From: an uncultured Alphaproteobacteria bacterium
GTDB taxonomy: Bacteria; Pseudomonadota; Alphaproteobacteria; Rhizobiales; Xanthobacteraceae
Assembly (NCBI GenBank): GCA_963808035.1
Contig: CAWEEF010000001.1
Coordinates: forward strand, 948,022-1,012,021
Direction: 5' to 3'
Length of the DNA stretch: 64,000 nucleotides
A program made the position numbers and the translations under genes. The notes below the pieces were generated by a model. That model searched no databases, was not told where the DNA came from, and saw nothing but the letters and a program-made list of their open reading frames with translations. This document shows, in pieces, positions 1,673 through 30,702 of the stretch; the first letter of the stretch is position 1, and each line of letters opens with the position of its first letter.

Positions 1673-2644
1673 ATGAGCGACGCCGTGGTCCCACACAAAT
1701 CCGAGGCGACCGCGCCGGCGACGACGCCTTCCTCCGGATGGCTGCGGCGCGCCGTCGACAGCGACGTGTTCTACTCCTTCCGCCGCTCCCGGCTCACCAT
1801 GCTGGCCGCCGCGGTGACGGTGCTGTTTTTCCTGCTCGCGATCTTCGCCTCGGTTCTTTCGGTGCAGAACCCGTTCGATCCGGGGCAGCTTCAACTGATG
1901 AATTCGCGCATCCCGCCGCTATGGGTGGCCGACGGCCAGAGCCCGTTCCTGCTCGGCACCGACGAGCAGGGCCGCGACGTGTTTTCCGCCATCCTCTACG
2001 GCTTGCGCATTTCGCTCACCGTCGGCGTGCTCGGCGTCGTGTTCTCGGGCGCGCTCGGCATTGTGCTCGGGCTGATCGCGGGCTATTTCGGCGGCGCGGT
2101 CGACACCCTGATCATGCGCGTCGCCGACGTGCAGCTCACCTTCCCGGCGATCCTGATCGCGCTGTTGATCAATGGCGTAGTCAAATCCGTGTTCGGCGAT
2201 CGGCTGGACGCCATGAGCATGCTGACGGTGCTGGTGTTCGCGATCGGCTTGAGCTTCTGGGTGCAATATGCCCGCACCGTGCGCGGCTCGGTGCTGGTGG
2301 AAAAAAACAAGGACTATGTCGCCGCGGCACAACTGATCGGGCTGCCCGCTCCCGTCATCATGCTGCGTCACGTGCTGCCCAATACGATGGGGCCGATCCT
2401 GGTGATCGCCACCATCAACCTCGCGCTCGCGATCATCACCGAGGCGACGCTGTCGTTCCTGGGCGCCGGCATGCCCGACACCATGCCGTCGCTCGGCACC
2501 CTGATCCGGATCGGCAACAATTACCTGTTCTCCGGCGAGTGGTGGATCGTCGCCTTCCCGGGTCTTGCCCTCGCCGCGCTGATCCTGTCCATCAACCTGC
2601 TCGGCGACTGGCTGCGCGACGCTCTCAATCCGAAACTTCGATGA
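1673..2644 (+). CDS. ABC transporter permease (DppC/OppC-like)
   Basis: LGTDEQGRDVFS; DYVAAAQLIG..RHVLPN; GDWLRDALNPK. Confidence 0.93.
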   Translation: MSDAVVPHKSEATAPATTPSSGWLRRAVDSDVFYSFRRSRLTMLAAAVTVLFFLLAIFASVLSVQNPFDPGQLQLMNSRIPPLWVADGQSPFLLGTDEQGRDVFSAILYGLRISLTVGVLGVVFSGALGIVLGLIAGYFGGAVDTLIMRVADVQLTFPAILIALLINGVVKSVFGDRLDAMSMLTVLVFAIGLSFWVQYARTVRGSVLVEKNKDYVAAAQLIGLPAPVIMLRHVLPNTMGPILVIATINLALAIITEATLSFLGAGMPDTMPSLGTLIRIGNNYLFSGEWWIVAFPGLALAALILSINLLGDWLRDALNPKLR

Positions 2645-2675
2645 CAAGCGCGGCCACGCCCGGTGACCTGATCGC

Positions 2676-3662
2676 ATGACCGAACCCGTTCTCTCCGTGC
2701 GCAACCTTGAGGTGGAGTTCGTCACCCGCCGCAGCGTGCTGCGCGCCATTGACGGAGTTTCCTTCGACATCGCCAAGGGCGAGGTGCTGGGCGTGGTCGG
2801 CGAATCCGGCGCGGGAAAATCCGTCACCGGCCTTGCTGTCATTGGCCTGATCGATCCGCCGGGCCGCATCGCCGGCGGCGAGGTCCGCCTCGCCGGCATG
2901 CGGATCGACCATCTGCCTCCGGAACAAATGCGGCGGATCCGGGGAAAACGGATCGGCATGATCTTCCAGGATCCGCTGACCAGCCTCAATCCGCTGTACC
3001 AGATCGGCGATCAGCTCGTGGAAACCATGCGCACCCATCTCAATCTCTCCGAAACGGCCGCGCGCCGGCGCGCCATCGACCTGCTCGCCGAGGTCGGCAT
3101 TCCCGCGCCGGAGAAACGCATCGATGCCTATCCGCACGAATTCTCCGGCGGCATGCGCCAGCGCGTGGTGATCGCACTGGCAATCTGCGCCGAGCCGGAA
3201 CTGATCATCGCCGACGAGCCGACCACGGCACTCGACGTCTCGGTGCAGGCGCAGATCATCGCGCTGATCAAGCGCCTCGGACGCGATCACGGCACCGCGG
3301 TGATGCTGGTAACCCATGACATGGGCGTGATCGCCGAAACCTCCGACCGCGTCGCCGTGATGTATTCCGGCCGCATTGCCGAGATCGGGCCGGTACAGGA
3401 TGTCGTGCAAAACCCGCTGCACCCCTACGCCAAGGGCCTGATGGGCGCGATCCCGACCCTTGTCGGCGACGCCAGACGGCTGGTCCAGATCCCCGGCACG
3501 ATGCCGCGGCTTTCCGCGATCCCGCCGGGCTGCCCGTTCAATCCGCGCTGTGCGTTCGTATTCGATCGCTGCCGGACCGAACGGCCGGAGCCGATCCGGC
3601 ATGGCACGCAGGCCGTGGCCTGCCATCTCTACGACGCCGCCACCAAGGAAACCGCGGCATGA
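2676..3662 (+). CDS. ABC transporter ATP-binding protein (DppD-like)
   Basis: Walker A GESGAGKS, signature FSGGMRQR, Walker B IIADEPT, C-terminal GCPFNPRC. Confidence 0.95.
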
Positions 3663-21972: not shown

Positions 21973-23175
21973 TCAGTAACGCGGCGGATTTGCCGGAATC
22001 GGCGGCGGCGGGTCGGCGGAAACCGACACGGCGGCTCCGGATTGCAGCTTGAGCTGCCCCACCGCGACCACGCGATCACCGGGCTTGAGGCCACTGACGA
22101 TCTCCGCTCTTCCGTCGATCCGGTTGCCGGTCCGCACAAAAGTGCGAACGGCGGTCAGGCTGGTCTTGCCGTCAGCTTCCTTCTTCTCGGTGAGGAGGAA
22201 AACCGAATCCCCGTAGAGCGTGTAATCGACCGCCGTTTCCGGCACCGTGACCACCGCCGGCTTATCGGGCAGCACCACCGTCGTCGTGACGAACATGCCG
22301 GGCTTCAGGATATGGTCCGGATTGGCGAGCGTGGCCTGAATGTGGATGTTGCGGGTATCGGTGCTGATCTGCGGCTCGATCGCGGTGATCTTTCCGTCGA
22401 AGGTCCGGCCGGGATAGGCGTCAACCACGACGCGCACGGTCTGCCCGACCTTGAGCTGCCCGCTGTCCTTTTCCGTCACGGTGAAATTCGCGTAGAGCGT
22501 CGCCAGATCCGTCAGCGTGACGATCTGGGTGCCCGCAGTCAGGAACTGGCCGACCTCGACGTGACGAACGCCGAGCACGCCGTCGAACGGCGCCCGCACC
22601 AGCTTTTGCGAGATGATCGCCTCGGTCTTGGCGATGCCGGCATTGGCCTGATCAAACGTCGCCTGCGCCTGATCGGCTGTCGCCTGCGGACCGAACTGGC
22701 GCGCCGCAAGCTGCTTGGCGCGATCGAGCGACAATTGCGCGACCACCGCCTGGGCCTTGAAGCTCGCAAGGTCGCCCTGCTCCGGGGCGTCGAACAGTTG
22801 CACCAGCGGCGCTCCCGCCTTCACCGACGCGCCGGCGGTGAACATGATGTCGGTGATGCGGCCGCTGACGTCGGAGGTGACATTGACCTGATGCACGGCC
22901 GCGAGATCGCCGACTGCCGTCAGCAGGTTCGGAATCACCTCCGATTTGGCTTCGGCAATGCTCACCGGCGTCGGCGGCGGTTTGTTGTTGGCGAAGAATT
23001 GCGCGATCATGTGGCTGCGGAACGCGTTGAAGCCGACGAGACCGCCGACCAGCAGTGCGAGCAGCAGCCCGACAATGATGAACCAGCGCACCATCCGGGC
23101 CGGACGGGTGGGCGGCTTGCCGGTAATCGCCTTGCCCGAGATATGAGCTTCGGTCACAATGTTCATGTCATGCAC
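21973..23175 (-). CDS. RND efflux periplasmic adaptor (MFP, MexH/MexV-like)
   Basis: N-terminal TM, VTSDVSGRI lipoyl half, VRAPFDG, LKPGMF, SGLKPGDRVV. Confidence 0.92.
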   Translation of the reverse strand: MHDMNIVTEAHISGKAITGKPPTRPARMVRWFIIVGLLLALLVGGLVGFNAFRSHMIAQFFANNKPPPTPVSIAEAKSEVIPNLLTAVGDLAAVHQVNVTSDVSGRITDIMFTAGASVKAGAPLVQLFDAPEQGDLASFKAQAVVAQLSLDRAKQLAARQFGPQATADQAQATFDQANAGIAKTEAIISQKLVRAPFDGVLGVRHVEVGQFLTAGTQIVTLTDLATLYANFTVTEKDSGQLKVGQTVRVVVDAYPGRTFDGKITAIEPQISTDTRNIHIQATLANPDHILKPGMFVTTTVVLPDKPAVVTVPETAVDYTLYGDSVFLLTEKKEADGKTSLTAVRTFVRTGNRIDGRAEIVSGLKPGDRVVAVGQLKLQSGAAVSVSADPPPPIPANPPRY

Positions 23176-23870
23176 CTTCTGCGGCTATCGATTGACCCGA
23201 ATCCAGCGACGTCACGCGGTCCAGGTGGGAAACAATTGCGGCGTCGCCAAGTCCGATGCCGCGGAGGATGAATTCGCACAGTTGCCGCTCGAGATCGGCG
23301 GCATGGCCGTAAGTCAGGCAGGGGACGGCCGGCAGTCTCGCCAGCGCTGCCATCAGCACGGTGTGATGCGCAAACCAAAACAGATTGAGCGGCTCGCATC
23401 CGACACGCGATGCATCGCCGGCCGCCACCGCGCGATCGAGCGAGGCGGTGAATACCGGGCCGATCAGGTTGCCGACCTTGGCGTAGAGCAGCCGCGCGAA
23501 TTCGCCATCGTCGAGATGAACTCGTGGTCATGAGCCGCAGACGTTGCGCTTCCTGCTGGTCCGGGCCCTCCGAAATCTGCAGGAAGTGGCGGACCATGCC
23601 TTTGACGAGTTCGACAAGGGTCGCGGTCGATGGCGCTTGCCCGAGCAGATGCGCGAGGTCCGGGTCGGCTTCGCATTCTTCCGTCAGGATTTCGGCGTAA
23701 AGCGCTGCTTTCGAAGGAAAATGCTTGAACAGCAAGCCTTCCGAAATGGCCGCCGCCGCCGCGACACTCCGGGTCGTGGTCCCGGCAAAACCGTGGCGGG
23801 CAAAACAGCGCTTCGCAGCGCTCAGGATGAGCTGCCGCCTCAGGTCACTGGTCATGCGCAAGGTAGACAT
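23168..23870 (-). pseudogene. TetR/AcrR regulator with +1 frameshift at ~23519-23520
   Basis: HTH (RCFARHGFAGTTTRSVAAAAAISEGLLFKHFPSKAALY) in one frame; removing one base at ATG ACC ACG AGT T CAT CTC GAC restores ...SHLDDGEFARLLYAKVGNLIG... continuing into the 23168-23428 ORF. Confidence 0.8.
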
Positions 23871-23876
23871 GGGCGT

Positions 23877-23907
23877 GTGAGTAATCACTCACCTTATCAA
23901 ATGTCAA
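23877..23907 (-). promoter_or_regulatory. Sigma70-like promoter (-35 TTGACA) overlapped by inverted-repeat operator GTGAGT-N4-ACTCAC
   Basis: Minus strand TTGACA at 23907-23902; perfect 6-bp inverted repeat 23877-23892 over the -10 position, just upstream of tetR ATG. Confidence 0.7.
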
Positions 23908-24091
23908 GGTAATATTGCAGCGCACCACGGCCGAAAAAAGGGGCCGCTCGCTACTGGGGAAAATTGCAACACAGTAGGGAAAAATTGCCCAGTTGGGCAG
24001 CTAGAACCCTGGACGCCCAACAATTTACGATTGTGTTCTTAAGGATTCGTGAGATGCTGAGAGAGCCAAAAAGGCCGCAATTGGGGGAAAT

Positions 24092-24349
24092 TTGTGCGCT
24101 TATAAGCCGCCGCCAAAGACGTTGCCCGGCTTTCCGAAGGCTGCCGGGGTCAGGCCCAAAACTTCAGTTGATAGTATTGGCAACAAGAAGCGCAAGCGAT
24201 GGGCAGAACCCGATGGCACGATTTATGAATGGGACTATCTACACGGCACTGTAGAGAAATACGACAAGCAAGGAAGGCATCAGGGTGAATTCCACCCAGA
24301 TGGCAGAAAGGCACAAGGCCCTATTCGCAATCGAAGGATTCGTCCATGA
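24092..24349 (+). CDS. Stand-alone colicin E3/pyocin S6-like cytotoxic rRNase domain (85 aa)
   Basis: KRKRWAEPDGTIYEWDYLHGTVEKYDKQGRHQGEFHP resembles ColE3 KRKRW...IYEWDSQHGELEGY...GQHLGSFDP; catalytic D-x2-H-x3-E kept; TTG start with GGGGG SD; in-frame stop at 24050-24052. Confidence 0.8.
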   Translation: MCAYKPPPKTLPGFPKAAGVRPKTSVDSIGNKKRKRWAEPDGTIYEWDYLHGTVEKYDKQGRHQGEFHPDGRKAQGPIRNRRIRP

Positions 24350-24588
24350 AAGCGGCCCATCGGCTAGTTGGGTATGATCGCCAGACCGAATCGGAAAAGT
24401 TCGAGTTGCCTATTCCCGAACCCATGTTCGGAGAGGTTCGGACGGTAGTTCGTTTTGACGATGACGATCTTGGTGCTGTTGGCTGTTATGAACTAACAGA
24501 CCGTCAGGCGCATCAGATCGCCACCATCGTCCATCGAAGAGACTTGCCTGCTGGGCTTGATTTCTTTCTGGAGGCGTACGCGCCCTAG
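24346..24588 (+). CDS. Probable cognate immunity protein (80 aa)
   Basis: ATGA overlap with toxin stop; small protein with loose resemblance to Im3-type pattern (L..YD..TE...GCYEL...DFFLE). Confidence 0.6.
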   Translation: MKAAHRLVGYDRQTESEKFELPIPEPMFGEVRTVVRFDDDDLGAVGCYELTDRQAHQIATIVHRRDLPAGLDFFLEAYAP

Positions 24589-24646
24589 CGTTTGCCTCCT
24601 TCAATGCCACGGAAAGCCCTCCGCCGCTCCGGCGCGCGCAATCAGC

Positions 24647-25237
24647 CTACATCGGCCTGAAACCCAATGCTCCCCGGATCCGATTCACAATGAAGGTGCC
24701 GTCGCGATTGGACAGCGCCCGCTCGAGATTGGCAGCATCGATTTTGACGCTGGCAAAGCGCGGCCCGGCTGAAACATCCTGCAGCGACGGGCTGAAGGCC
24801 TCGATTTCGGCCATGGTGGTCATGGCGCGCGCCTCGGCAATCCCGCAGGCGCGGGCCACACCGACGAGGTCGGCCGCGGCTGCGGTGTGGCTCGCCTGAC
24901 CGCCGGTTTCGCCGTAGCACTCATTGTCGAGCACGATGATGCTCAGGTTGCCGGGTTTCTGCAGGCCGACAGTGGCGAGGCTTCCGATCCCCATCAGCAT
25001 CTCGCCGTCGCCGGTGATCACGACCACCGGCAGCTTCGGCTGCGCCAAGGCGAGGCCGAGCCCGATCATGACGGCGCCGCCCATCGCGCCCCACATATAG
25101 AGATTGCGGTCGTGGTCGCCGGCGGCGGCAATATCGTAGGTCGAGGCGCCCAATCCGCCGACCACGATGGCGTCCTTGCGTTCCGCCAGCAGGGTTGCGA
25201 CCACGCTGCGCCGCTCGAGAAGATTTGCTTTGCTCAT
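24647..25237 (-). CDS. ThDP-dependent decarboxylase beta subunit (sulfopyruvate/phosphonopyruvate decarboxylase-like)
   Basis: WGAMGGA, ThDP motif GDGEMLM...VLDNE, TGGQ; start MSKANLL overlapping alpha-subunit stop. Confidence 0.82.
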   Translation of the reverse strand: MSKANLLERRSVVATLLAERKDAIVVGGLGASTYDIAAAGDHDRNLYMWGAMGGAVMIGLGLALAQPKLPVVVITGDGEMLMGIGSLATVGLQKPGNLSIIVLDNECYGETGGQASHTAAAADLVGVARACGIAEARAMTTMAEIEAFSPSLQDVSAGPRFASVKIDAANLERALSNRDGTFIVNRIRGALGFRPM

Positions 25238-27112: not shown

Positions 27113-27375
27113 GGAGAATGACTTTTGATTGAACGGCCGATCCGCAGATTCAGTAAACCTCTCCCGAGCGAGTACTGGCGCTGCCCACGACGCCGGCAAA
27201 GTCCCTCGCCTCGCTGACAGGGCTTGGAGCATTGCTCAGTTGGTTGGCGCTGTTCTCGTGGTCGCGACGGCGCTATCGACTGAGGCCCCTCCGGATCGTC
27301 GGCGCCGCTACGTAGTAATAGACGGCGGACGGAATTGACCCATTGTGGTCGTCCTAGAATCCTGTATGATAGTTC

Positions 27376-27403: not shown

Positions 27404-27427
27404 TCGTAGTTGAGGCGGTCAATCCAC

Positions 27428-29821
27428 ATGGACGACCAAACGGCAAAAATTTGGGCTCGGCAACTCGGATTGACCGCAACGCCACTGTTTGGTCGCGAGC
27501 GGCCGAACACAGAACAGCGCCATTTGGCTCTGCTTGATGGCGCGCGAGCGAGTTTCTTAATTTCGCCTGACGAGGATGACGATCTTTCTGAAGCGCCAGA
27601 CTGGGCATGGTCTGCCAATGTTCGGCATCACGTTGCCTTAACGCAGAAACAGGTCATCGTCTCAAGGAGTACCGGTTCGAAGGAAATATTTCAACGGCTT
27701 TCCGTCCAATCAAAATTGGATGAATTTCTTAAATACTTGGAGTTGGATTCTGGCGCACAAAAAATCCTCAGTGCCATTGATCACCTCGTGACGATTTTTC
27801 GAAAACACCGAGCTACGCTCCGTGCAGAGGCGATAGCTGTCCCCGAACTCGAAAGTTTTTTATATCTGTTGGCTCTTGCGCAAGAGAATATTACTGAAGG
27901 GCCTCTACACCATCAGGGGCGTGCAATTGTCCGAAAATACGCCCTTGGAGACTTTGATCCAAGCGGACTACGCAACAATTACGTTCTTAGGTTTGTGCAA
28001 GAATTGCAAATGAGCACAACGTCGATGCGCAAACTTATCGCGCCGGTAACGATAAGGCATGCGGGTGGCGTCCTTTTTCAAGAAGCCCATGCCGAGATAC
28101 TTTCAGAACCTGTCCAAATGACACTGTTCGGATTGGCCGATGCCGGACAACAAAAATTAGATCTGTCGCTAGGCGTCTATTACACTCCGGCCGGCCTAGC
28201 GCGAACACTCACAGAATTAGCGATTGAATCGCATCTGTCTAAGGATGTTATCCGAATACACGATCCCGCATGCGGGTCCGGAATTTTTTTGTGTGAAGCC
28301 ATAAGAGCGCTGCAGCGCAAACAGTTCAAAGGAAAGGTTGAACTTGTAGGTCTAGATGTCTCTCCTTCAGCAGTCCAAATGGCGCGTTTCTCTATTGCTT
28401 GCGCGCTCCTTGACTGGCCAACCCACAAGGTCAAATGGAATTTAGAAACTGGAAGTTACTTTGAAACGAAAAAACCGCCACATCCATTTGACGTGGTGCT
28501 CATGAACCCACCCTTCCTTTCGTGGCAGGCGCTCTCTTCTGAATTGAAGAGTGTTGTGAAAGAGACACTCGGCGAAACGTTCGCCGGCCGACCCGACCTA
28601 AGCACCGCCTTCATACAAAAGGCTTTGGGGGAAATAATTCGTGGTGGCACGCTCGCAACTCTAATTCCAAGAGGAATTTTAGATAGCCAAAAGGGATCGC
28701 AATGGAGAGAATTTCTTCTCTCCGATAACGACGTCCGCTTGATCGGGACGTTCGGCGACCACGGGCTATTTCGACATGCGATGGTGAGTATCGGAGCCGC
28801 TGTTATCGAACGCAAGTCACCTCATAATATCTCGGTTGGAGAACGCGCTGCCGTGATGGTGTGGGCTGATGAAAGAGCAGATTCTGCCGGTGGCGCTTTG
28901 AGGGCGCTCCGCCGCCGACTTTGGGCTAGCAACTCCCTGGAGGAGCGCACAGAGAGTTGGTCGATTTACTCGGTAAGATCCAATGATCTTTTACAGCGTA
29001 AAAGTTGGTTACCATCGCCGAACGCCTTGGGTTCGCTCGTTGACATAATCGAAGAGAAGCAATTTCCGAGACTGAGCAATCTGTTTCGTGTGCGCCAAGG
29101 AATTAAGACGGGGTTGAACGACGCATTCCTTCTATCCAACGATGAATTGCTTTCGTTACCGAAATCAGAACAACGGTTTTTTCGCCCAGTCGCAAATGGT
29201 GAAGACATCTTTAGCGGTCGCATTCAGTCATCCACAAATATCTTCTATGTCCCGGGAAGATTCAAATCTCGGAGGCAGCTTCTGGAAAATGTTCCTGTGT
29301 TCGGAAAAAAACTCCTAACGTTTGAAAATTCGCTAAAGCGGCGACCAAAGTCGAACCCTCAACGTTGGTGGGAACCGGTTTGGCCTCGAAAGGATTTAGC
29401 GGAGCGATCGCCGCGAATTTTCACGAAGATGTTCGGTGGCCCTGACATGGCGGCCGTTGATGCGAGGGGCGAATTTTTGCCTCTTCAGACATTTGCGTGG
29501 ATGCCTCAGTGGGAAGAAATGGGTGTCGATAAAAGCCTCAGAGAGGCGGCGCTTTGGTGGTACTGCAGGCTCTTAAATTCTCGCGTTTTTTTTCTGCTTA
29601 GAAGAGAGCTTTCTTCTGCTAGCACCGCGGGCGGGCAATTGGACGTGTCGCCGAAATATATTGATCAAATCCCCCTGCCCATCCCGGAGGCGGAAGATCT
29701 CATTCGTATGGCTTCGACGGGCATGCCGAATCTCAGTGCGACCGAAGTGAATGATGGGCTGGTGGCGATGGCATATGGGACCACGATCAATTCGTGGCCG
29801 ATCTATGCAAAGTCCAATTGA
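27428..29821 (+). CDS. Gamma-class N6-adenine DNA methyltransferase (TaqI/Eco57I-like) with C-terminal TRD and unexplained ~250-aa N-terminal region
   Basis: GVYYTP (motif X), HDPACGSGIFL (I), GLDVS, VLMNPPF (IV), FRHAMV; TRD-like RQGIKTG.....LLNS....IDQIPLP; GAGG SD 9-12 nt before ATG 27428. Confidence 0.88.
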   Translation: MDDQTAKIWARQLGLTATPLFGRERPNTEQRHLALLDGARASFLISPDEDDDLSEAPDWAWSANVRHHVALTQKQVIVSRSTGSKEIFQRLSVQSKLDEFLKYLELDSGAQKILSAIDHLVTIFRKHRATLRAEAIAVPELESFLYLLALAQENITEGPLHHQGRAIVRKYALGDFDPSGLRNNYVLRFVQELQMSTTSMRKLIAPVTIRHAGGVLFQEAHAEILSEPVQMTLFGLADAGQQKLDLSLGVYYTPAGLARTLTELAIESHLSKDVIRIHDPACGSGIFLCEAIRALQRKQFKGKVELVGLDVSPSAVQMARFSIACALLDWPTHKVKWNLETGSYFETKKPPHPFDVVLMNPPFLSWQALSSELKSVVKETLGETFAGRPDLSTAFIQKALGEIIRGGTLATLIPRGILDSQKGSQWREFLLSDNDVRLIGTFGDHGLFRHAMVSIGAAVIERKSPHNISVGERAAVMVWADERADSAGGALRALRRRLWASNSLEERTESWSIYSVRSNDLLQRKSWLPSPNALGSLVDIIEEKQFPRLSNLFRVRQGIKTGLNDAFLLSNDELLSLPKSEQRFFRPVANGEDIFSGRIQSSTNIFYVPGRFKSRRQLLENVPVFGKKLLTFENSLKRRPKSNPQRWWEPVWPRKDLAERSPRIFTKMFGGPDMAAVDARGEFLPLQTFAWMPQWEEMGVDKSLREAALWWYCRLLNSRVFFLLRRELSSASTAGGQLDVSPKYIDQIPLPIPEAEDLIRMASTGMPNLSATEVNDGLVAMAYGTTINSWPIYAKSN

Positions 29822-30542
29822 AAAGAGTGAATTTGCCAGCCACTTACAGCGACTCCGGCGAATTTTTGACCGCCGGGTTGAAGCCAAGCATGGTGACAAT
29901 TTTCAAATGTCGATCCTGCCAAATCGAAGAGGAATGACCAACGTTACTCTGCAAAAAAACTCATCAACCGTAGACGCAATTAGCGACCTCGACCGGGAAG
30001 AGGTATGCGTCGTTCTGAAAAGTTCATCCAAAACGAGCATATTGTGCGCTTATTTTGAAAGCTGGCAATCCGCTGGCAAAGAGCGTCTCATGTTTCAAAA
30101 TGCTTCAATGACCTTCTTTCTAAATTTTGAGGATGGGGGGTCATCCACCACAAAACAAATATTTCGGCTCGAGTGGGAGAATTGGTACAATCAAAATCCG
30201 CCGAACAGTGCAGCATACCCTCATTGGCAATTCGACCGGTGGCTGACAGCGTCGGACACCAATCTTTTGGAAGATTTACGCGAAAGCTTGGAGGGCGCTC
30301 CGTCGGAGGAGTCTGTTTTTGAGACTGCAGAACGGCAAGTTAAGCGGAAGCGGCCGGACCTAGGGTGGTTCACCAAAATACATTTTCCTTCGAACGCCCC
30401 GTGGGCCACGAATCCTGTTCCCGTGCTTGACGTAGGTGTTCAATCCCACCGGTCCCTGCCAAGCTCGCCAAAGGCAATCGAGGATTGGCTCGATTCCGCT
30501 CTGTGCTATCTTAAAGGCGAATTGCTGGCACACGCCAGCTAG
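29805..30542 (+). CDS. Hypothetical protein (245 aa), partner of the methyltransferase
   Basis: Long ORF in low-GC DNA overlapping MTase end by 17 nt; motifs YFESW, QIFRLEWE, AYPHWQFD, KIHFP. Confidence 0.75.
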   Translation: MQSPIEKSEFASHLQRLRRIFDRRVEAKHGDNFQMSILPNRRGMTNVTLQKNSSTVDAISDLDREEVCVVLKSSSKTSILCAYFESWQSAGKERLMFQNASMTFFLNFEDGGSSTTKQIFRLEWENWYNQNPPNSAAYPHWQFDRWLTASDTNLLEDLRESLEGAPSEESVFETAERQVKRKRPDLGWFTKIHFPSNAPWATNPVPVLDVGVQSHRSLPSSPKAIEDWLDSALCYLKGELLAHAS

Positions 30543-30702
30543 TCGGGGGCTTCCAAAGTTCGAAATCACATCGCTGCTCTCGAAAGAACTCGAATTTCGT
30601 GGCTAACGTGCGCGTTGCATATGAGCGGTTTCATGGAATTGATCGTCTAGTTGAAAGGCTAAGCGGCCTGTTCCGAAAACGAGTGGCCTAATTCGGCCGG
30701 TA

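What the first reader, a model, noticed from the sequence alone, without database searches (positions are those of the whole stretch)
24092..24588. Stand-alone colicin E3-like ribosome nuclease plus immunity gene with no delivery domain: candidate unrecognised TA or abortive-infection module
Seen: an 85-aa ORF starting at the boundary of the cytotoxic domain (YKPPPK), with KRKRW...IYEWDYLHGTVEKY...GRHQGEF, coupled by ATGA to an 80-aa ORF. An in-frame stop at 24050-24052 excludes any N-terminal extension. There is no signal peptide, Rhs/CDI junction motif or secretion gene nearby. The cassette is lower in GC by eye and is wedged between two housekeeping loci. Established: colicin E3 cleaves 16S rRNA at the A-site using the D-x2-H-x3-E triad (D510/H513/E517), normally as the tip of a large exported toxin followed by its immunity gene. 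Inference: an intact catalytic domain with its own SD and no export route would act on its own cell, i.e. as a toxin-antitoxin, persistence or anti-phage suicide module, rather than as a bacteriocin or a silent orphan tip.
Basis: partly seen in the sequence, partly recalled or inferred. Interest (0 to 1): 0.8.

Follow-up and report, generated by a model that had tools for sequence, protein, structure and literature searches.

The report
Stand-alone colicin-E3 toxin–immunity cassette
A 0.7-kb mobile two-gene cassette inserted between two Bradyrhizobium housekeeping genes encodes only the ribosome-cutting tip of colicin E3 and its inhibitor, with no delivery domain, so it most likely acts inside its own cell like a toxin–antitoxin pair, a use not described for this toxin fold in the papers searched.

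Summary
ORF 24092-24349 (TTG, 85 aa) is a complete colicin E3 rRNase domain: PF09000 E 7.5e-22, and a model at TM 0.85 to the solved domain. D48/H51/E55/H63 are invariant in 32 relatives. ORF 24346-24588 overlaps it by ATGA and is a DUF7683 protein with a colicin-E3-immunity-like fold.

The pair lies in a ~710-bp low-GC insert (23935-24645). About 75 of 80 related genomes lack this insert at the same TetR/TPP-enzyme junction. A ~95% identical copy sits upstream of recA in other soil contigs. All 32 close homologues are short. Both genes are under purifying selection (dN/dS 0.08-0.28). The TTG start and a promoter-like leader are conserved, and metatranscriptome contigs cover the gene junction. 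Of 80 species-representative loci carrying this toxin subtype, 38 are stand-alone, and 37 of those are solitary among housekeeping genes.

So this is not a decaying orphan tip, and it is not a classical bacteriocin: it has no import domains, lysis gene or LexA box. The best reading is a mobile, self-acting toxin-immunity (TA-like) module (confidence about 0.55). Intracellular action, addiction and phage defence are inferred, not shown. Defence-island association is weak, and export by an unlinked system is not excluded.

The parts
23935..24645 (.). About 710-bp low-GC mobile cassette (leader, toxin, immunity gene, short tail) inserted in the TetR/TPP-enzyme intergenic spacer
   Evidence: It is ~95% identical to L017/L018/L020, with abrupt loss of similarity at both ends. 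It is absent from the same junction in ~75 of 80 related genomes, including the closest ones, L028 and L029. GC is 0.533 against 0.633 for the window.
23929..23934 (+). Left arm (GGCCGA) of the intergenic hairpin that the insertion split
   Evidence: The empty sites read CACGGCCGAT-ATGAGGCTAG-ATCGGCCTG. In the window the two arms are ~710 bp apart.
24651..24657 (+). Right arm (ATCGGCC) of the split hairpin, just after the TPP-enzyme stop codon (24647-24649, minus strand)
23975..23990 (+). Conserved upstream block TAGGGAAAAATTGCCC, of unknown role (possibly a regulator site or a leader RNA element)
   Evidence: It is conserved in 10 of 12 leader lineages even though synonymous sites are saturated. 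The proposed pairing with the SD region is inconclusive.
24021..24033 (+). Palindrome CAATTTACGATTG overlapping the -35 element; candidate operator
   Evidence: It is conserved as CAATYTNCRATTG across lineages. The operator role is inferred.
24031..24036 (+). Candidate -35 hexamer TTGTGT
   Evidence: The TTGNNT hexamer is kept with a 16-nt spacer in 12 lineages. This is an inference. The consensus scanner's stricter rule did not call it.
24050..24058 (+). Candidate extended -10, TGaGATGCT.
   Evidence: It is nearly invariant and always lies exactly 42 nt from the TGA to the TTG start.
24083..24088 (+). Shine-Dalgarno-like GGGGGA, 4 nt before the TTG start
   Evidence: The GGGG run is conserved in all Bradyrhizobium-type copies.
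24092..24349 (+). Toxin gene: 85-aa stand-alone colicin E3-type rRNase domain (pI 10.1). Catalytic codons are D48 at 24233-35, H51 at 24242-44, E55 at 24254-56 and H63 at 24278-80.
   Evidence: Family, structure and conservation. TTG start invariant in 19 copies. dN/dS 0.08-0.28.
24334..24338 (+). Shine-Dalgarno AAGGA of the immunity gene, 7 nt before its ATG
   Evidence: Read directly from the sequence.
24346..24588 (+). Immunity/antitoxin gene: 80-aa acidic DUF7683 protein (pI 4.8) with an Im3-like fold
   Evidence: PF24731 scores 35.2 bits against a cut-off of 27. NF040643, the pyocin S6 alternative immunity family, scores 27.2 against 30. AlphaFold pLDDT is 84.6. The top PDB fold match is 3eip_A, the colicin E3 immunity protein (prob 0.97, TM 0.50). 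dN/dS is 0.09-0.20.
24589..24645 (.). 3' tail of the cassette, shared with the L017 copy as far as ~24636
   Evidence: In L017 this stretch continues into a degenerate fragment of an IS-like ORF.

Best explanation
This is a self-contained, horizontally mobile two-gene toxin-immunity module that works like a type II toxin-antitoxin pair.

A promoter inside the cassette drives a bicistronic mRNA. The first cistron starts at a weak TTG with a tightly spaced SD. It yields an 85-aa basic protein that is nothing but the colicin E3 rRNase domain. By homology this domain cuts 16S rRNA in the decoding centre (A1493/G1494) and stops translation. The second cistron has an ATG start and a good SD, and is coupled to the first through ATGA. 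It yields an acidic Im3-like protein that binds and blocks the RNase.

The toxin has no signal peptide, no receptor or translocation domain, no inner-membrane-translocation domain and no linked secretion gene. Its target is therefore the ribosome of its own cell. It would be released when the immunity protein is lost or out-titrated, for example after loss of the cassette, a shut-off of host gene expression, or phage infection.

Shown here: domain identity and completeness, stand-alone architecture, insertion polymorphism, purifying selection, conserved start and leader, and transcription. Inferred: rRNA cleavage, neutralisation by binding, action in cis, and the biological role (addiction/stabilisation or abortive infection).
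For: - Toxin: a complete ColE3 RNase domain with invariant D48/H51/E55/H63.
- Partner: an Im3-like fold, with an HMM link between DUF7683 and Cloacin_immun.
- Close homologues: all 32 are 68-124 aa. Every locus examined has the same overlapping pair in a different housekeeping context.
- Mobility: a precise ~710-bp presence/absence polymorphism with the empty site in the nearest relatives. A ~95% identical copy lies at another chromosomal site.
- Selection: dN/dS is 0.08-0.28 for both genes while dS is saturated.
- Start and leader: the TTG start is invariant in 19 copies. The TTGNNT-N16-TGnGATGCT leader element lies at a fixed 42-nt distance.
- Transcription: metatranscriptome contigs cover the toxin/immunity junction.
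- Wider survey: 38 of 80 species-representative loci are stand-alone, 37 of 38 are solitary, and at least 24 have a DUF7683-like partner. Their neighbours are heterogeneous housekeeping genes with no secretion-system enrichment.
- Copy number and replicons: three copies in one MAG, copies on a Bosea plasmid and in 2 IMG/VR contigs.
- Phage precedent: a PF09000 protein sits next to the immunity repressor of temperate Gordonia phages, in a pair annotated as toxin/antitoxin.
- Missing import module: the IMT (Pyocin_S) domain needed for inner-membrane import of nuclease bacteriocins is absent.
Against: - There is no experimental evidence for self-intoxication.
- The partner has no DNA-binding domain, and its lability is unknown. 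Im3-E3 complexes are, from general knowledge, extremely tight, so a release mechanism is not obvious.
- Toxin-first gene order and an Im3-type partner are the bacteriocin layout.
- The same toxin subtype (50-62% identity) forms the C-terminus of pyocin-, Rhs-, WXG100-, PAAR- and eCIS-linked proteins. Non-covalent loading onto an unlinked secretion system therefore remains possible.
- PADLOC and PHROGs give no real hit.
- Defence-gene neighbours are the exception.
- The metatranscriptome contigs could include contaminating DNA.
Confidence: 0.55

Rival explanations
1. Exported cargo effector. The 85-aa toxin, bound to its immunity protein, is loaded non-covalently onto an unlinked secretion machine (T6SS spike or Hcp, an eCIS/tailocin, T4SS or vesicles). 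It is injected into competitors, and the downstream gene protects siblings.
For: - Long relatives of the same subtype carry PAAR, Rhs, WXG100, eCIS-core and Pyocin_S modules.
- Toxin-then-immunity gene order and the Im3-like partner are typical of interbacterial toxins.
- The review of characterised PF09000 proteins lists only bacteriocins and CDI effectors.
Against: - No secretion, adaptor or chaperone gene lies in the window or is enriched next to 38 stand-alone loci.
- The protein begins exactly at the domain boundary, leaving no room for a targeting motif.
- It has no IMT domain.
- Stand-alone copies occur in very different phyla (cyanobacteria, actinobacteria, myxobacteria, alphaproteobacteria), which do not share one delivery machine.
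- There are several copies per genome and on plasmid and phage contigs.
Confidence: 0.2
2. Silent reservoir or acquired-immunity cassette. The pair is kept mainly for its immunity gene, which protects against E3-type toxins of neighbours, or as a spare tip that can recombine into a full-length polymorphic toxin. The toxin ORF is little or not expressed.
For: - Stand-alone toxin cassettes as recombination donors are an established idea for polymorphic toxins (Zhang et al. 2012, PMC3482391).
- One stand-alone locus (L286) and the Pseudomonas pyocin locus (L011) do show tandem arrays of tips.
Against: - 37 of 38 stand-alone loci are solitary, with no full-length toxin within 3 kb.
- No long toxin appears among the close homologues.
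- The upstream leader is non-coding (it has a 7-nt indel) and carries no pre-toxin junction homology.
- The toxin ORF, its catalytic residues, its TTG start and its SD are under strong constraint. A silent spare part or an immunity-only function would not need that.
- RNA contigs include the toxin's 3' half.
Confidence: 0.15
3. Decaying orphan fragment of a former large toxin locus, with no function.
For: It has low GC and foreign origin. A neighbouring IS-like ORF is fragmentary in some copies.
Against: - dN/dS is 0.08-0.28 for both genes, with the catalytic residues invariant.
- The insert has precise boundaries only ~157 bp upstream of the start.
- The architecture is conserved in dozens of lineages.
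Confidence: 0.03

Closest known systems
Colicin E3 / cloacin DF13 / pyocin S6 with their immunity proteins (nuclease bacteriocins)
   Same: - The cytotoxic rRNase domain is the same: PF09000, ~40% identity, TM 0.85, and the same D-x2-H-x3-E plus His residues.
- The immunity gene follows immediately downstream, and its product has an Im3-like fold.
   Different: - The protein is 85 aa, not 350-950 aa. It has no receptor-binding, translocation or IMT (Pyocin_S) domain.
- There is no lysis gene and no LexA box.
- It is chromosomal, solitary and in Alphaproteobacteria.
- The immunity protein falls in DUF7683, not Cloacin_immun.
- The main HMM survey of nuclease bacteriocins filtered for 350-950 residues, so it did not consider such ORFs (PMC5536347).
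Orphan or stand-alone toxin-immunity cassettes of polymorphic toxin systems (CDI, Rhs; Zhang et al. 2012)
   Same: It has a toxin tip plus an immunity gene without the delivery part. The toxin domain is shared with full-length polymorphic toxins.
   Different: - It is not downstream of a full-length toxin and is solitary in 37 of 38 loci.
- No remnant of a pre-toxin region (VENN, PT-HINT or Rhs core) is present.
- It has its own conserved start codon, SD and promoter-like leader.
- It moves as a 0.7-kb unit between unrelated intergenic sites.
Type II toxin-antitoxin modules with ribosome- or rRNA-cleaving toxins (e.g. RelS-RelI, RelE1 and MazF11 at the 16S anti-SD; PMC13284704)
   Same: - Two small overlapping co-transcribed genes encode a basic RNase toxin and an acidic protein inhibitor.
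- Distribution is patchy and mobile, with several copies per genome and copies on plasmids and phages.
- The predicted target is 16S rRNA of the assembled ribosome.
   Different: - The toxin fold is ColE3, not RelE/MazF/VapC.
- The predicted cut is in the A-site decoding centre, not the anti-SD.
- The toxin gene comes first.
- The antitoxin has no recognisable DNA-binding domain, and its lability is unknown.
Gordonia phage Phabuloso gp52/gp51 (annotated 'HicA-like toxin' / 'HicB-like antitoxin')
   Same: A PF09000 domain (E 4.8e-13, 36% identity to the window toxin) sits in a small protein followed by an overlapping partner gene. The pair lies beside the prophage immunity repressor, a position typical of lysogen-expressed TA or defence genes.
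   Different: - The protein is 168 aa, with an unrelated ~110-aa N-terminal part, and only profile positions 26-79 are matched.
- The partner is 284 aa and is not DUF7683.
- The host is an actinobacterium.
- No functional data were found.

Membership tests
Colicin E3 cytotoxic rRNase domain (Pfam PF09000) | Profile match above the curated threshold over the whole domain | tested here: met
   77.9 bits against a cut-off of 22, profile positions 2-79 of 80. PDB ColE3 chains match at E 6.8e-8.
Colicin E3 cytotoxic rRNase domain (Pfam PF09000) | ColE3 RNase fold | tested here: met
   AlphaFold model pLDDT 91.1, TM 0.85, rmsd 1.5 A to 1e44_B. The top five PDB hits are all ColE3.
Colicin E3 cytotoxic rRNase domain (Pfam PF09000) | Catalytic D-x2-H-x3-E, plus the second His proposed by Zhang et al. 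2012 | tested here: met
   D48, H51, E55 and H63 are invariant in 32 relatives and align to ColE3 D/H/E. Residue roles are taken from PMC3482391.
Colicin E3 cytotoxic rRNase domain (Pfam PF09000) | Cleaves 16S rRNA between A1493 and G1494 | not testable with these tools
   This needs primer extension or a Northern blot after expression.
Nuclease bacteriocin (colicin / S-type pyocin) | Multi-domain protein (350-950 aa) with receptor-binding, translocation and IMT (Pyocin_S) domains | tested here: not met
   The protein is 85 aa, PF09000 is its only domain, and an in-frame stop lies 14 codons upstream. Criteria are from PMC5536347 and PMC9040868.
Nuclease bacteriocin (colicin / S-type pyocin) | Immunity gene immediately downstream | tested here: met
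   4-nt overlap and an Im3-like fold.
Nuclease bacteriocin (colicin / S-type pyocin) | SOS (LexA) control and a lysis/release gene | tested here: not met
   There is no GTTC-N7-GTTC or GAAC-N7-GAAC box (allowing one mismatch) in the leader, while recA in related loci has a perfect one. The cassette has no third gene.
Orphan cassette of a CDI/Rhs polymorphic toxin locus | Lies downstream of a full-length toxin gene, or in an array of tips | tested here: not met
   There is no second PF09000 match in the window. 37 of 38 stand-alone loci are solitary within 3 kb.
Orphan cassette of a CDI/Rhs polymorphic toxin locus | Keeps a piece of the conserved pre-toxin region for recombination and lacks its own initiation signals | tested here: not met
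   The leader is non-coding and unrelated to pre-toxin motifs. The TTG start and SD are conserved.
Type II toxin-antitoxin system | Two small adjacent co-transcribed genes for a toxin and a protein inhibitor | tested here: met
   ATGA overlap. An RNA contig spans 24229-24472 across the junction. The pair is conserved in all loci examined.
Type II toxin-antitoxin system | Toxin acts on the producing cell (no export) | tested here: inconclusive
   No signal, delivery domain or linked secretion gene was found. Absence of export cannot be proven from sequence.
Type II toxin-antitoxin system | Antitoxin is labile and, classically, autoregulates through a DNA-binding domain | tested here: not met
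   No DNA-binding domain is found by Pfam or by fold; the model has a compact Im3-like fold. Lability cannot be tested here.
Type II toxin-antitoxin system | Patchy, mobile distribution; several copies; on plasmids and phages | tested here: met
   Insertion polymorphism, three copies in one MAG, a plasmid copy and viral contigs.
Colicin E3 / cloacin immunity protein family (PF03513 / Im3) | Sequence-profile membership | tested here: inconclusive
   The window protein hits DUF7683 (35.2 bits) but not PF03513. A Pseudomonas PF03513 protein gives a weak DUF7683 hit (E 9e-4). NF040643 scores 27.2 bits, below its cut-off of 30.
Colicin E3 / cloacin immunity protein family (PF03513 / Im3) | Im3 fold | tested here: met
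   The top and only confident PDB match is 3eip_A (prob 0.97, TM 0.50, 80 columns). The TM-score is only moderate.
Known anti-phage defence system / abortive infection | Match to a defence-system model, or consistent defence-island context | tested here: not met
   PADLOC gives only a 14.5-bit NsnC hit. Neighbours are mostly housekeeping genes, and defence genes lie nearby only in L002 and 3 kb away in the window.

The most novel reading that the evidence does not exclude
The colicin E3 fold, so far described only in exported bacteriocins and contact-dependent toxins, also forms the toxin of a widespread, unrecognised family of minimal mobile toxin-antitoxin-like modules (ColE3 domain plus DUF7683/Im3-like partner). 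These modules would cut the decoding centre of the host's own ribosomes and serve as addiction or abortive-infection devices. They would also be a natural intracellular source of the exact lesion that the PrfH-RtcB2 ribosome rescue system repairs.
Probability: 0.45. Interest if true: 0.75.

Novelty: new variant of a known kind. Interest (0 to 1): 0.62.

Why it matters
If the module acts in cis, it adds a new toxin fold and a new cleavage target, the 16S A-site, to the toxin-antitoxin and abortive-infection repertoire. It would also show that a textbook bacteriocin warhead has a second life as an intracellular module.

It gives a very small experimental system: 0.7 kb with two ~9-kDa proteins whose homologues have solved structures. 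That system can test how an ultra-tight immunity complex might be opened inside a cell.

It also bears on why bacteria keep a repair pathway (PrfH/RtcB2, PMC9304027) specific for the colicin-E3 cut.

On the practical side, gene callers often miss the TTG-started toxin. Bacteriocin surveys filter these ORFs out by length. NCBI names them 'colicin E3/pyocin S6 family cytotoxin', which implies a bacteriocin they cannot be.

Tried and rejected
- An exact 16-mer scan of genome contigs with the leader motif returned 114 stretches in unrelated taxa, none visibly from Bradyrhizobium or a relative. They look like chance matches and were not checked for the toxin gene.
- A metagenome scan with TGAGATGST-N33-TTGTGCGC returned 91 stretches, of which only 5 carry the cassette. 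It added one lineage.
- N-terminal extension by read-through or frameshift is rejected. The leader has a 7-nt indel between lineages, and the TGA is part of a conserved -10-like element.
- The upstream ORF starting at ATG 24054 (SD AAGGA; 67 codons in the window) is rejected as a conserved feature. It is only 3 codons in L001/L025, and the AAGGA is not kept in L402, L403, L003 or L338.
- Long-range leader/SD pairing and a leader hairpin came out of RNAalifold. The pair count is inconclusive: 86.6% paired against 84.8% in shuffles, and 2 pairs with double changes.
- An antisense RNA ending at the minus-strand terminator-like hairpin 23999..23986 is not testable with the unstranded contigs available.
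- Rfam gives only a sub-threshold mmgR hit (19 bits against 41).
- No LexA/SOS box was found.
- PADLOC NsnC (E 0.0046) was treated as chance. PHROGs gave nothing.
- The IS-like ORF next to several copies has no Pfam or NCBIfam hit. Its resemblance to IS1-type transposase C-termini rests on memory only.
- No paper in the library mentions DUF7683, or a stand-alone ColE3 toxin-antitoxin or defence module.
Full report
**1. The observation**

The window has two overlapping plus-strand ORFs. The first runs 24092-24349 (TTG start, 85 aa). The second runs 24346-24588 (ATG start, 80 aa) and is joined to the first through ATGA. An in-frame TGA lies at 24050-24052.

The first ORF is a full-length colicin E3 cytotoxic domain. 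It matches PF09000 at 77.9 bits, E 7.5e-22, over profile positions 2-79 of 80. It matches ColE3 RNase chains in the PDB at E 6.8e-8. Its AlphaFold model has pLDDT 91 and superposes on 1e44_B at TM 0.85 and 1.5 A. D48, H51, E55 and H63 are invariant in 32 relatives.

The second ORF is a DUF7683 protein (35.2 bits against a cut-off of 27). It scores just below threshold for NCBI's 'pyocin S6 alternative immunity' family. Its model (pLDDT 84.6) has one confident PDB neighbour, the colicin E3 immunity protein 3eip_A (prob 0.97, TM 0.50). A Pseudomonas pyocin-linked Cloacin_immun protein gives a weak DUF7683 hit. The toxin is basic (pI 10.1) and the partner is acidic (pI 4.8).

**2. It is a discrete insertion**

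The region is 0.533 GC against 0.633 for the window.

Alignment with soil-metagenome contigs L017, L018 and L020 shows ~95% identity from about 23935 to about 24636, with abrupt loss of similarity on both sides. In those contigs the same unit lies upstream of recA.

I then fetched 80 genomes of Bradyrhizobium and relatives through the neighbouring TPP-enzyme gene. In about 75 of them the TetR gene starts within roughly 70-300 bp of the TPP-gene stop, and in most within about 70-100 bp. None of the 80 carries the toxin or the immunity gene, including the two closest genomes at 97% and 95% protein identity.

The empty site reads CACGGCCGAT-ATGAGGCTAG-ATCGGCCTG. In the window the two hairpin arms are separated by the ~710-bp insert. 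I found no target-site duplication and no terminal inverted repeats.

In several lineages a 113-211-aa ORF lies convergent to the immunity gene. L226 and L404 share 54% identity in this ORF (E 5e-33). A fragment of the same family lies at window 27129-27335. The ORF has no Pfam or NCBIfam match. From memory it resembles IS1-type transposase C-termini.

**3. It is genuinely stand-alone and maintained**

All 32 proteins found with the toxin as query are 68-124 aa.

Every locus inspected has the same overlapping pair, but between different housekeeping genes:
- between an MCP gene and degP in two Bradyrhizobium strains;
- after a DUF1275 gene;
- after an OmpA-like gene in the 9.8-Mb contig of strain AZCC 2230;
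- upstream of recA in at least three diverged lineages;
- next to GmrSD and UvrD/PDDEXK genes in one strain.

Pairwise dN/dS is 0.08-0.28 for both genes, while synonymous sites are near saturation between subfamilies. The TTG start is kept in all 19 Bradyrhizobium-type copies. Gene callers often miss the toxin, although the ORF is intact.

Two metatranscriptome runs hold contigs of the cassette. One is 100% identical over 24229-24472, across the toxin/immunity junction. This is modest evidence for bicistronic transcription, because contaminating DNA cannot be excluded.

**4. The leader**

The ~157 bp upstream of the start belong to the mobile unit and are conserved far beyond neutral expectation. 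They are not coding, because a 7-nt indel separates lineages.

The best-conserved part reads as a sigma-70-type promoter: TTGTGT (24031-36), a 16-nt spacer, then the extended -10 TGaGATGCT (24050-58). It always lies exactly 42 nt before the TTG start.

A CAAT-N5-ATTG palindrome overlaps the -35 element. A second block, TAGGGAAAAATTGCCC (23975-90), lies further upstream. Their roles are unknown.

An RNA-structure alternative, in which the leader block pairs with the SD, is inconclusive. No Rfam family matches.

The cassette has no alphaproteobacterial LexA box, whereas recA next to the sister copies has a perfect one. Unlike colicin operons, it is therefore not visibly SOS-controlled.

The toxin has a TTG start and an SD only 4 nt away. 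The immunity gene has an ATG start and an AAGGA 7 nt upstream. I infer from this that immunity is made in excess.

**5. The wider family**

A profile search of 1.84 billion representative proteins gave 1468 hits. Among the best 150, 29 are 130 aa or shorter and 89 are 200 aa or longer. The long ones carry Pyocin_S (13), PT-HINT, RHS, WXG100, eCIS-core, PAAR and VENN modules. They are only 50-62% identical to the window toxin.

Among 80 species-representative genome loci with the IYEWDY[QLR]H motif, 38 are ORFs of 140 aa or less, each bounded by an upstream in-frame stop. They occur in Alphaproteobacteria, cyanobacteria, actinobacteria, myxobacteria and Verrucomicrobia.
- 37 of the 38 have no second toxin copy within 3 kb.
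- At least 24 have a DUF7683-like partner, mostly with the same 4-nt overlap.
- Their neighbours are heterogeneous housekeeping genes, with a few transposases and no secretion-system enrichment.

Stand-alone pairs also occur on a Bosea megaplasmid and on two IMG/VR contigs.

In three temperate Gordonia phages, a 168-aa protein with a C-terminal PF09000 domain sits directly after the immunity repressor and is followed by an overlapping partner gene. The pair is annotated, apparently wrongly, as HicA/HicB-like.

**6. Interpretation**

- A decaying orphan tip is excluded by the selection and conservation data.
- A classical bacteriocin is excluded. The protein lacks the multi-domain architecture. 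It also lacks the IMT (Pyocin_S) domain, which is required for inner-membrane import of nuclease bacteriocins (PMC9040868). There is no lysis gene and no SOS box.
- A recombination reservoir (Zhang et al. 2012) fits poorly with solitary loci, private initiation signals and constraint on the toxin ORF.
- The best explanation is a mobile, self-acting toxin-immunity module that works like a type II TA pair. Its likely role is addiction/stabilisation or abortive infection.

Action in cis, neutralisation by binding, rRNA cleavage and any phage link are all inferred. Four points argue against this reading. The Im3-like partner has no DNA-binding domain. There is no obvious way to open what is, in colicins, an extremely tight complex. 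Defence-island association is weak. The subtype has exported relatives, so delivery by an unlinked machine remains possible. My estimates are about 0.55 for the TA-like reading, 0.2 for an exported cargo effector, 0.15 for a reservoir or immunity-centred role, and 0.03 for a remnant.

**7. Novelty**

All characterised PF09000 proteins listed in a 2023 review are bacteriocins or CDI effectors (PMC9990079). The main HMM survey of nuclease bacteriocins kept only proteins of 350-950 aa (PMC5536347). No paper in the library mentions DUF7683, or a stand-alone ColE3 TA or defence module. Known rRNA-cleaving TA toxins use other folds and cut elsewhere (PMC13284704).

I rate this a new variant of a known kind: known domains in an undescribed stand-alone, mobile, apparently self-targeting arrangement. 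It also connects to the PrfH-RtcB2 system, which repairs exactly the ColE3 lesion (PMC9304027).

Noticed in passing
window 27410-30600: A second low-GC island (0.50 GC) holds an 803-aa N6-adenine DNA methyltransferase-like ORF at 27410-29821. Its best PADLOC hit is MTase_II (E 7e-23), with weaker hits to type IIG, BREX PglX and MADS models. A 263-aa ORF at 29751-30542 has no family match and may be its restriction or effector partner.
   Followed up: partly
window 27129-27338 (+); L226:10240-10851 (-); L227:1426-2061 (-); L404:4492-4833 (-); L017:2486-2920 (-): An ORF family with no Pfam or NCBIfam hit (motif RFTRLTN(G/A)FSKK..NH...YN..R.H) lies convergent to the immunity gene in several diverged cassette lineages. 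L226 and L404 share 54% identity (E 5e-33). A fragment sits at the left edge of the second low-GC island in the window. From memory it resembles IS1-type transposase C-termini, so it may be the vehicle that moves these islands.
   Followed up: partly
window 23163-23888 (-), near 23518-23520: The TetR-family regulator next to the RND efflux operon is frameshifted relative to its 233-aa orthologue in L028. Residues 1-117 match in one frame and 118-233 in another. This is either a pseudogene, which might derepress the pump, or a sequencing error.
   Followed up: partly
L222 (Gordonia phage Phabuloso ON526981.1) 2186-3539; also phages Kamaru and LitninMcQueen: The gene annotated 'HicA-like toxin' (168 aa) actually carries a C-terminal colicin E3 cytotoxic domain (PF09000, E 4.8e-13). 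It sits right after the prophage immunity repressor. Its 284-aa 'HicB-like' partner has no family hit.
   Followed up: partly
L008, L009, L010 (MAG MFD03726.bin.1.14, uncultured alphaproteobacterium): One genome bin carries three near-identical copies of a 116-aa stand-alone toxin plus an 89-aa DUF7683 partner on three contigs. In L010 the copy lies next to a 464-aa DDE-type transposase-like ORF and a small RHH-like ORF.
   Followed up: no
window 23956-23967, 23977-23988, 24084-24095; and 24041-24050 with 24334-24343: The sequence around the toxin RBS (GGGGAAATTTGT) occurs twice more in the leader as GGGRAAAATTGC, 21 bp apart. The 10-mer AAGGATTCGT in the leader is repeated exactly at the immunity gene's RBS. 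The significance is unknown, and only some of these repeats are conserved in other lineages.
   Followed up: partly
L017-L022, L225, L226 (region upstream of recA): In several Bradyrhizobium-like lineages the space upstream of recA is a variable stretch packed with small ORFs (DUF6894, PilZ, unknowns). It repeatedly hosts the toxin-immunity cassette, so it is a possible integration hotspot.
   Followed up: no
window 23926-24005 (-): There is a sub-threshold Rfam match to the alphaproteobacterial sRNA family mmgR/suhB (19.3 bits against a gathering score of 41, E 0.28). It overlaps a minus-strand terminator-like hairpin at 23999-23986. It is probably chance, but it lies in the conserved leader.
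   Followed up: no
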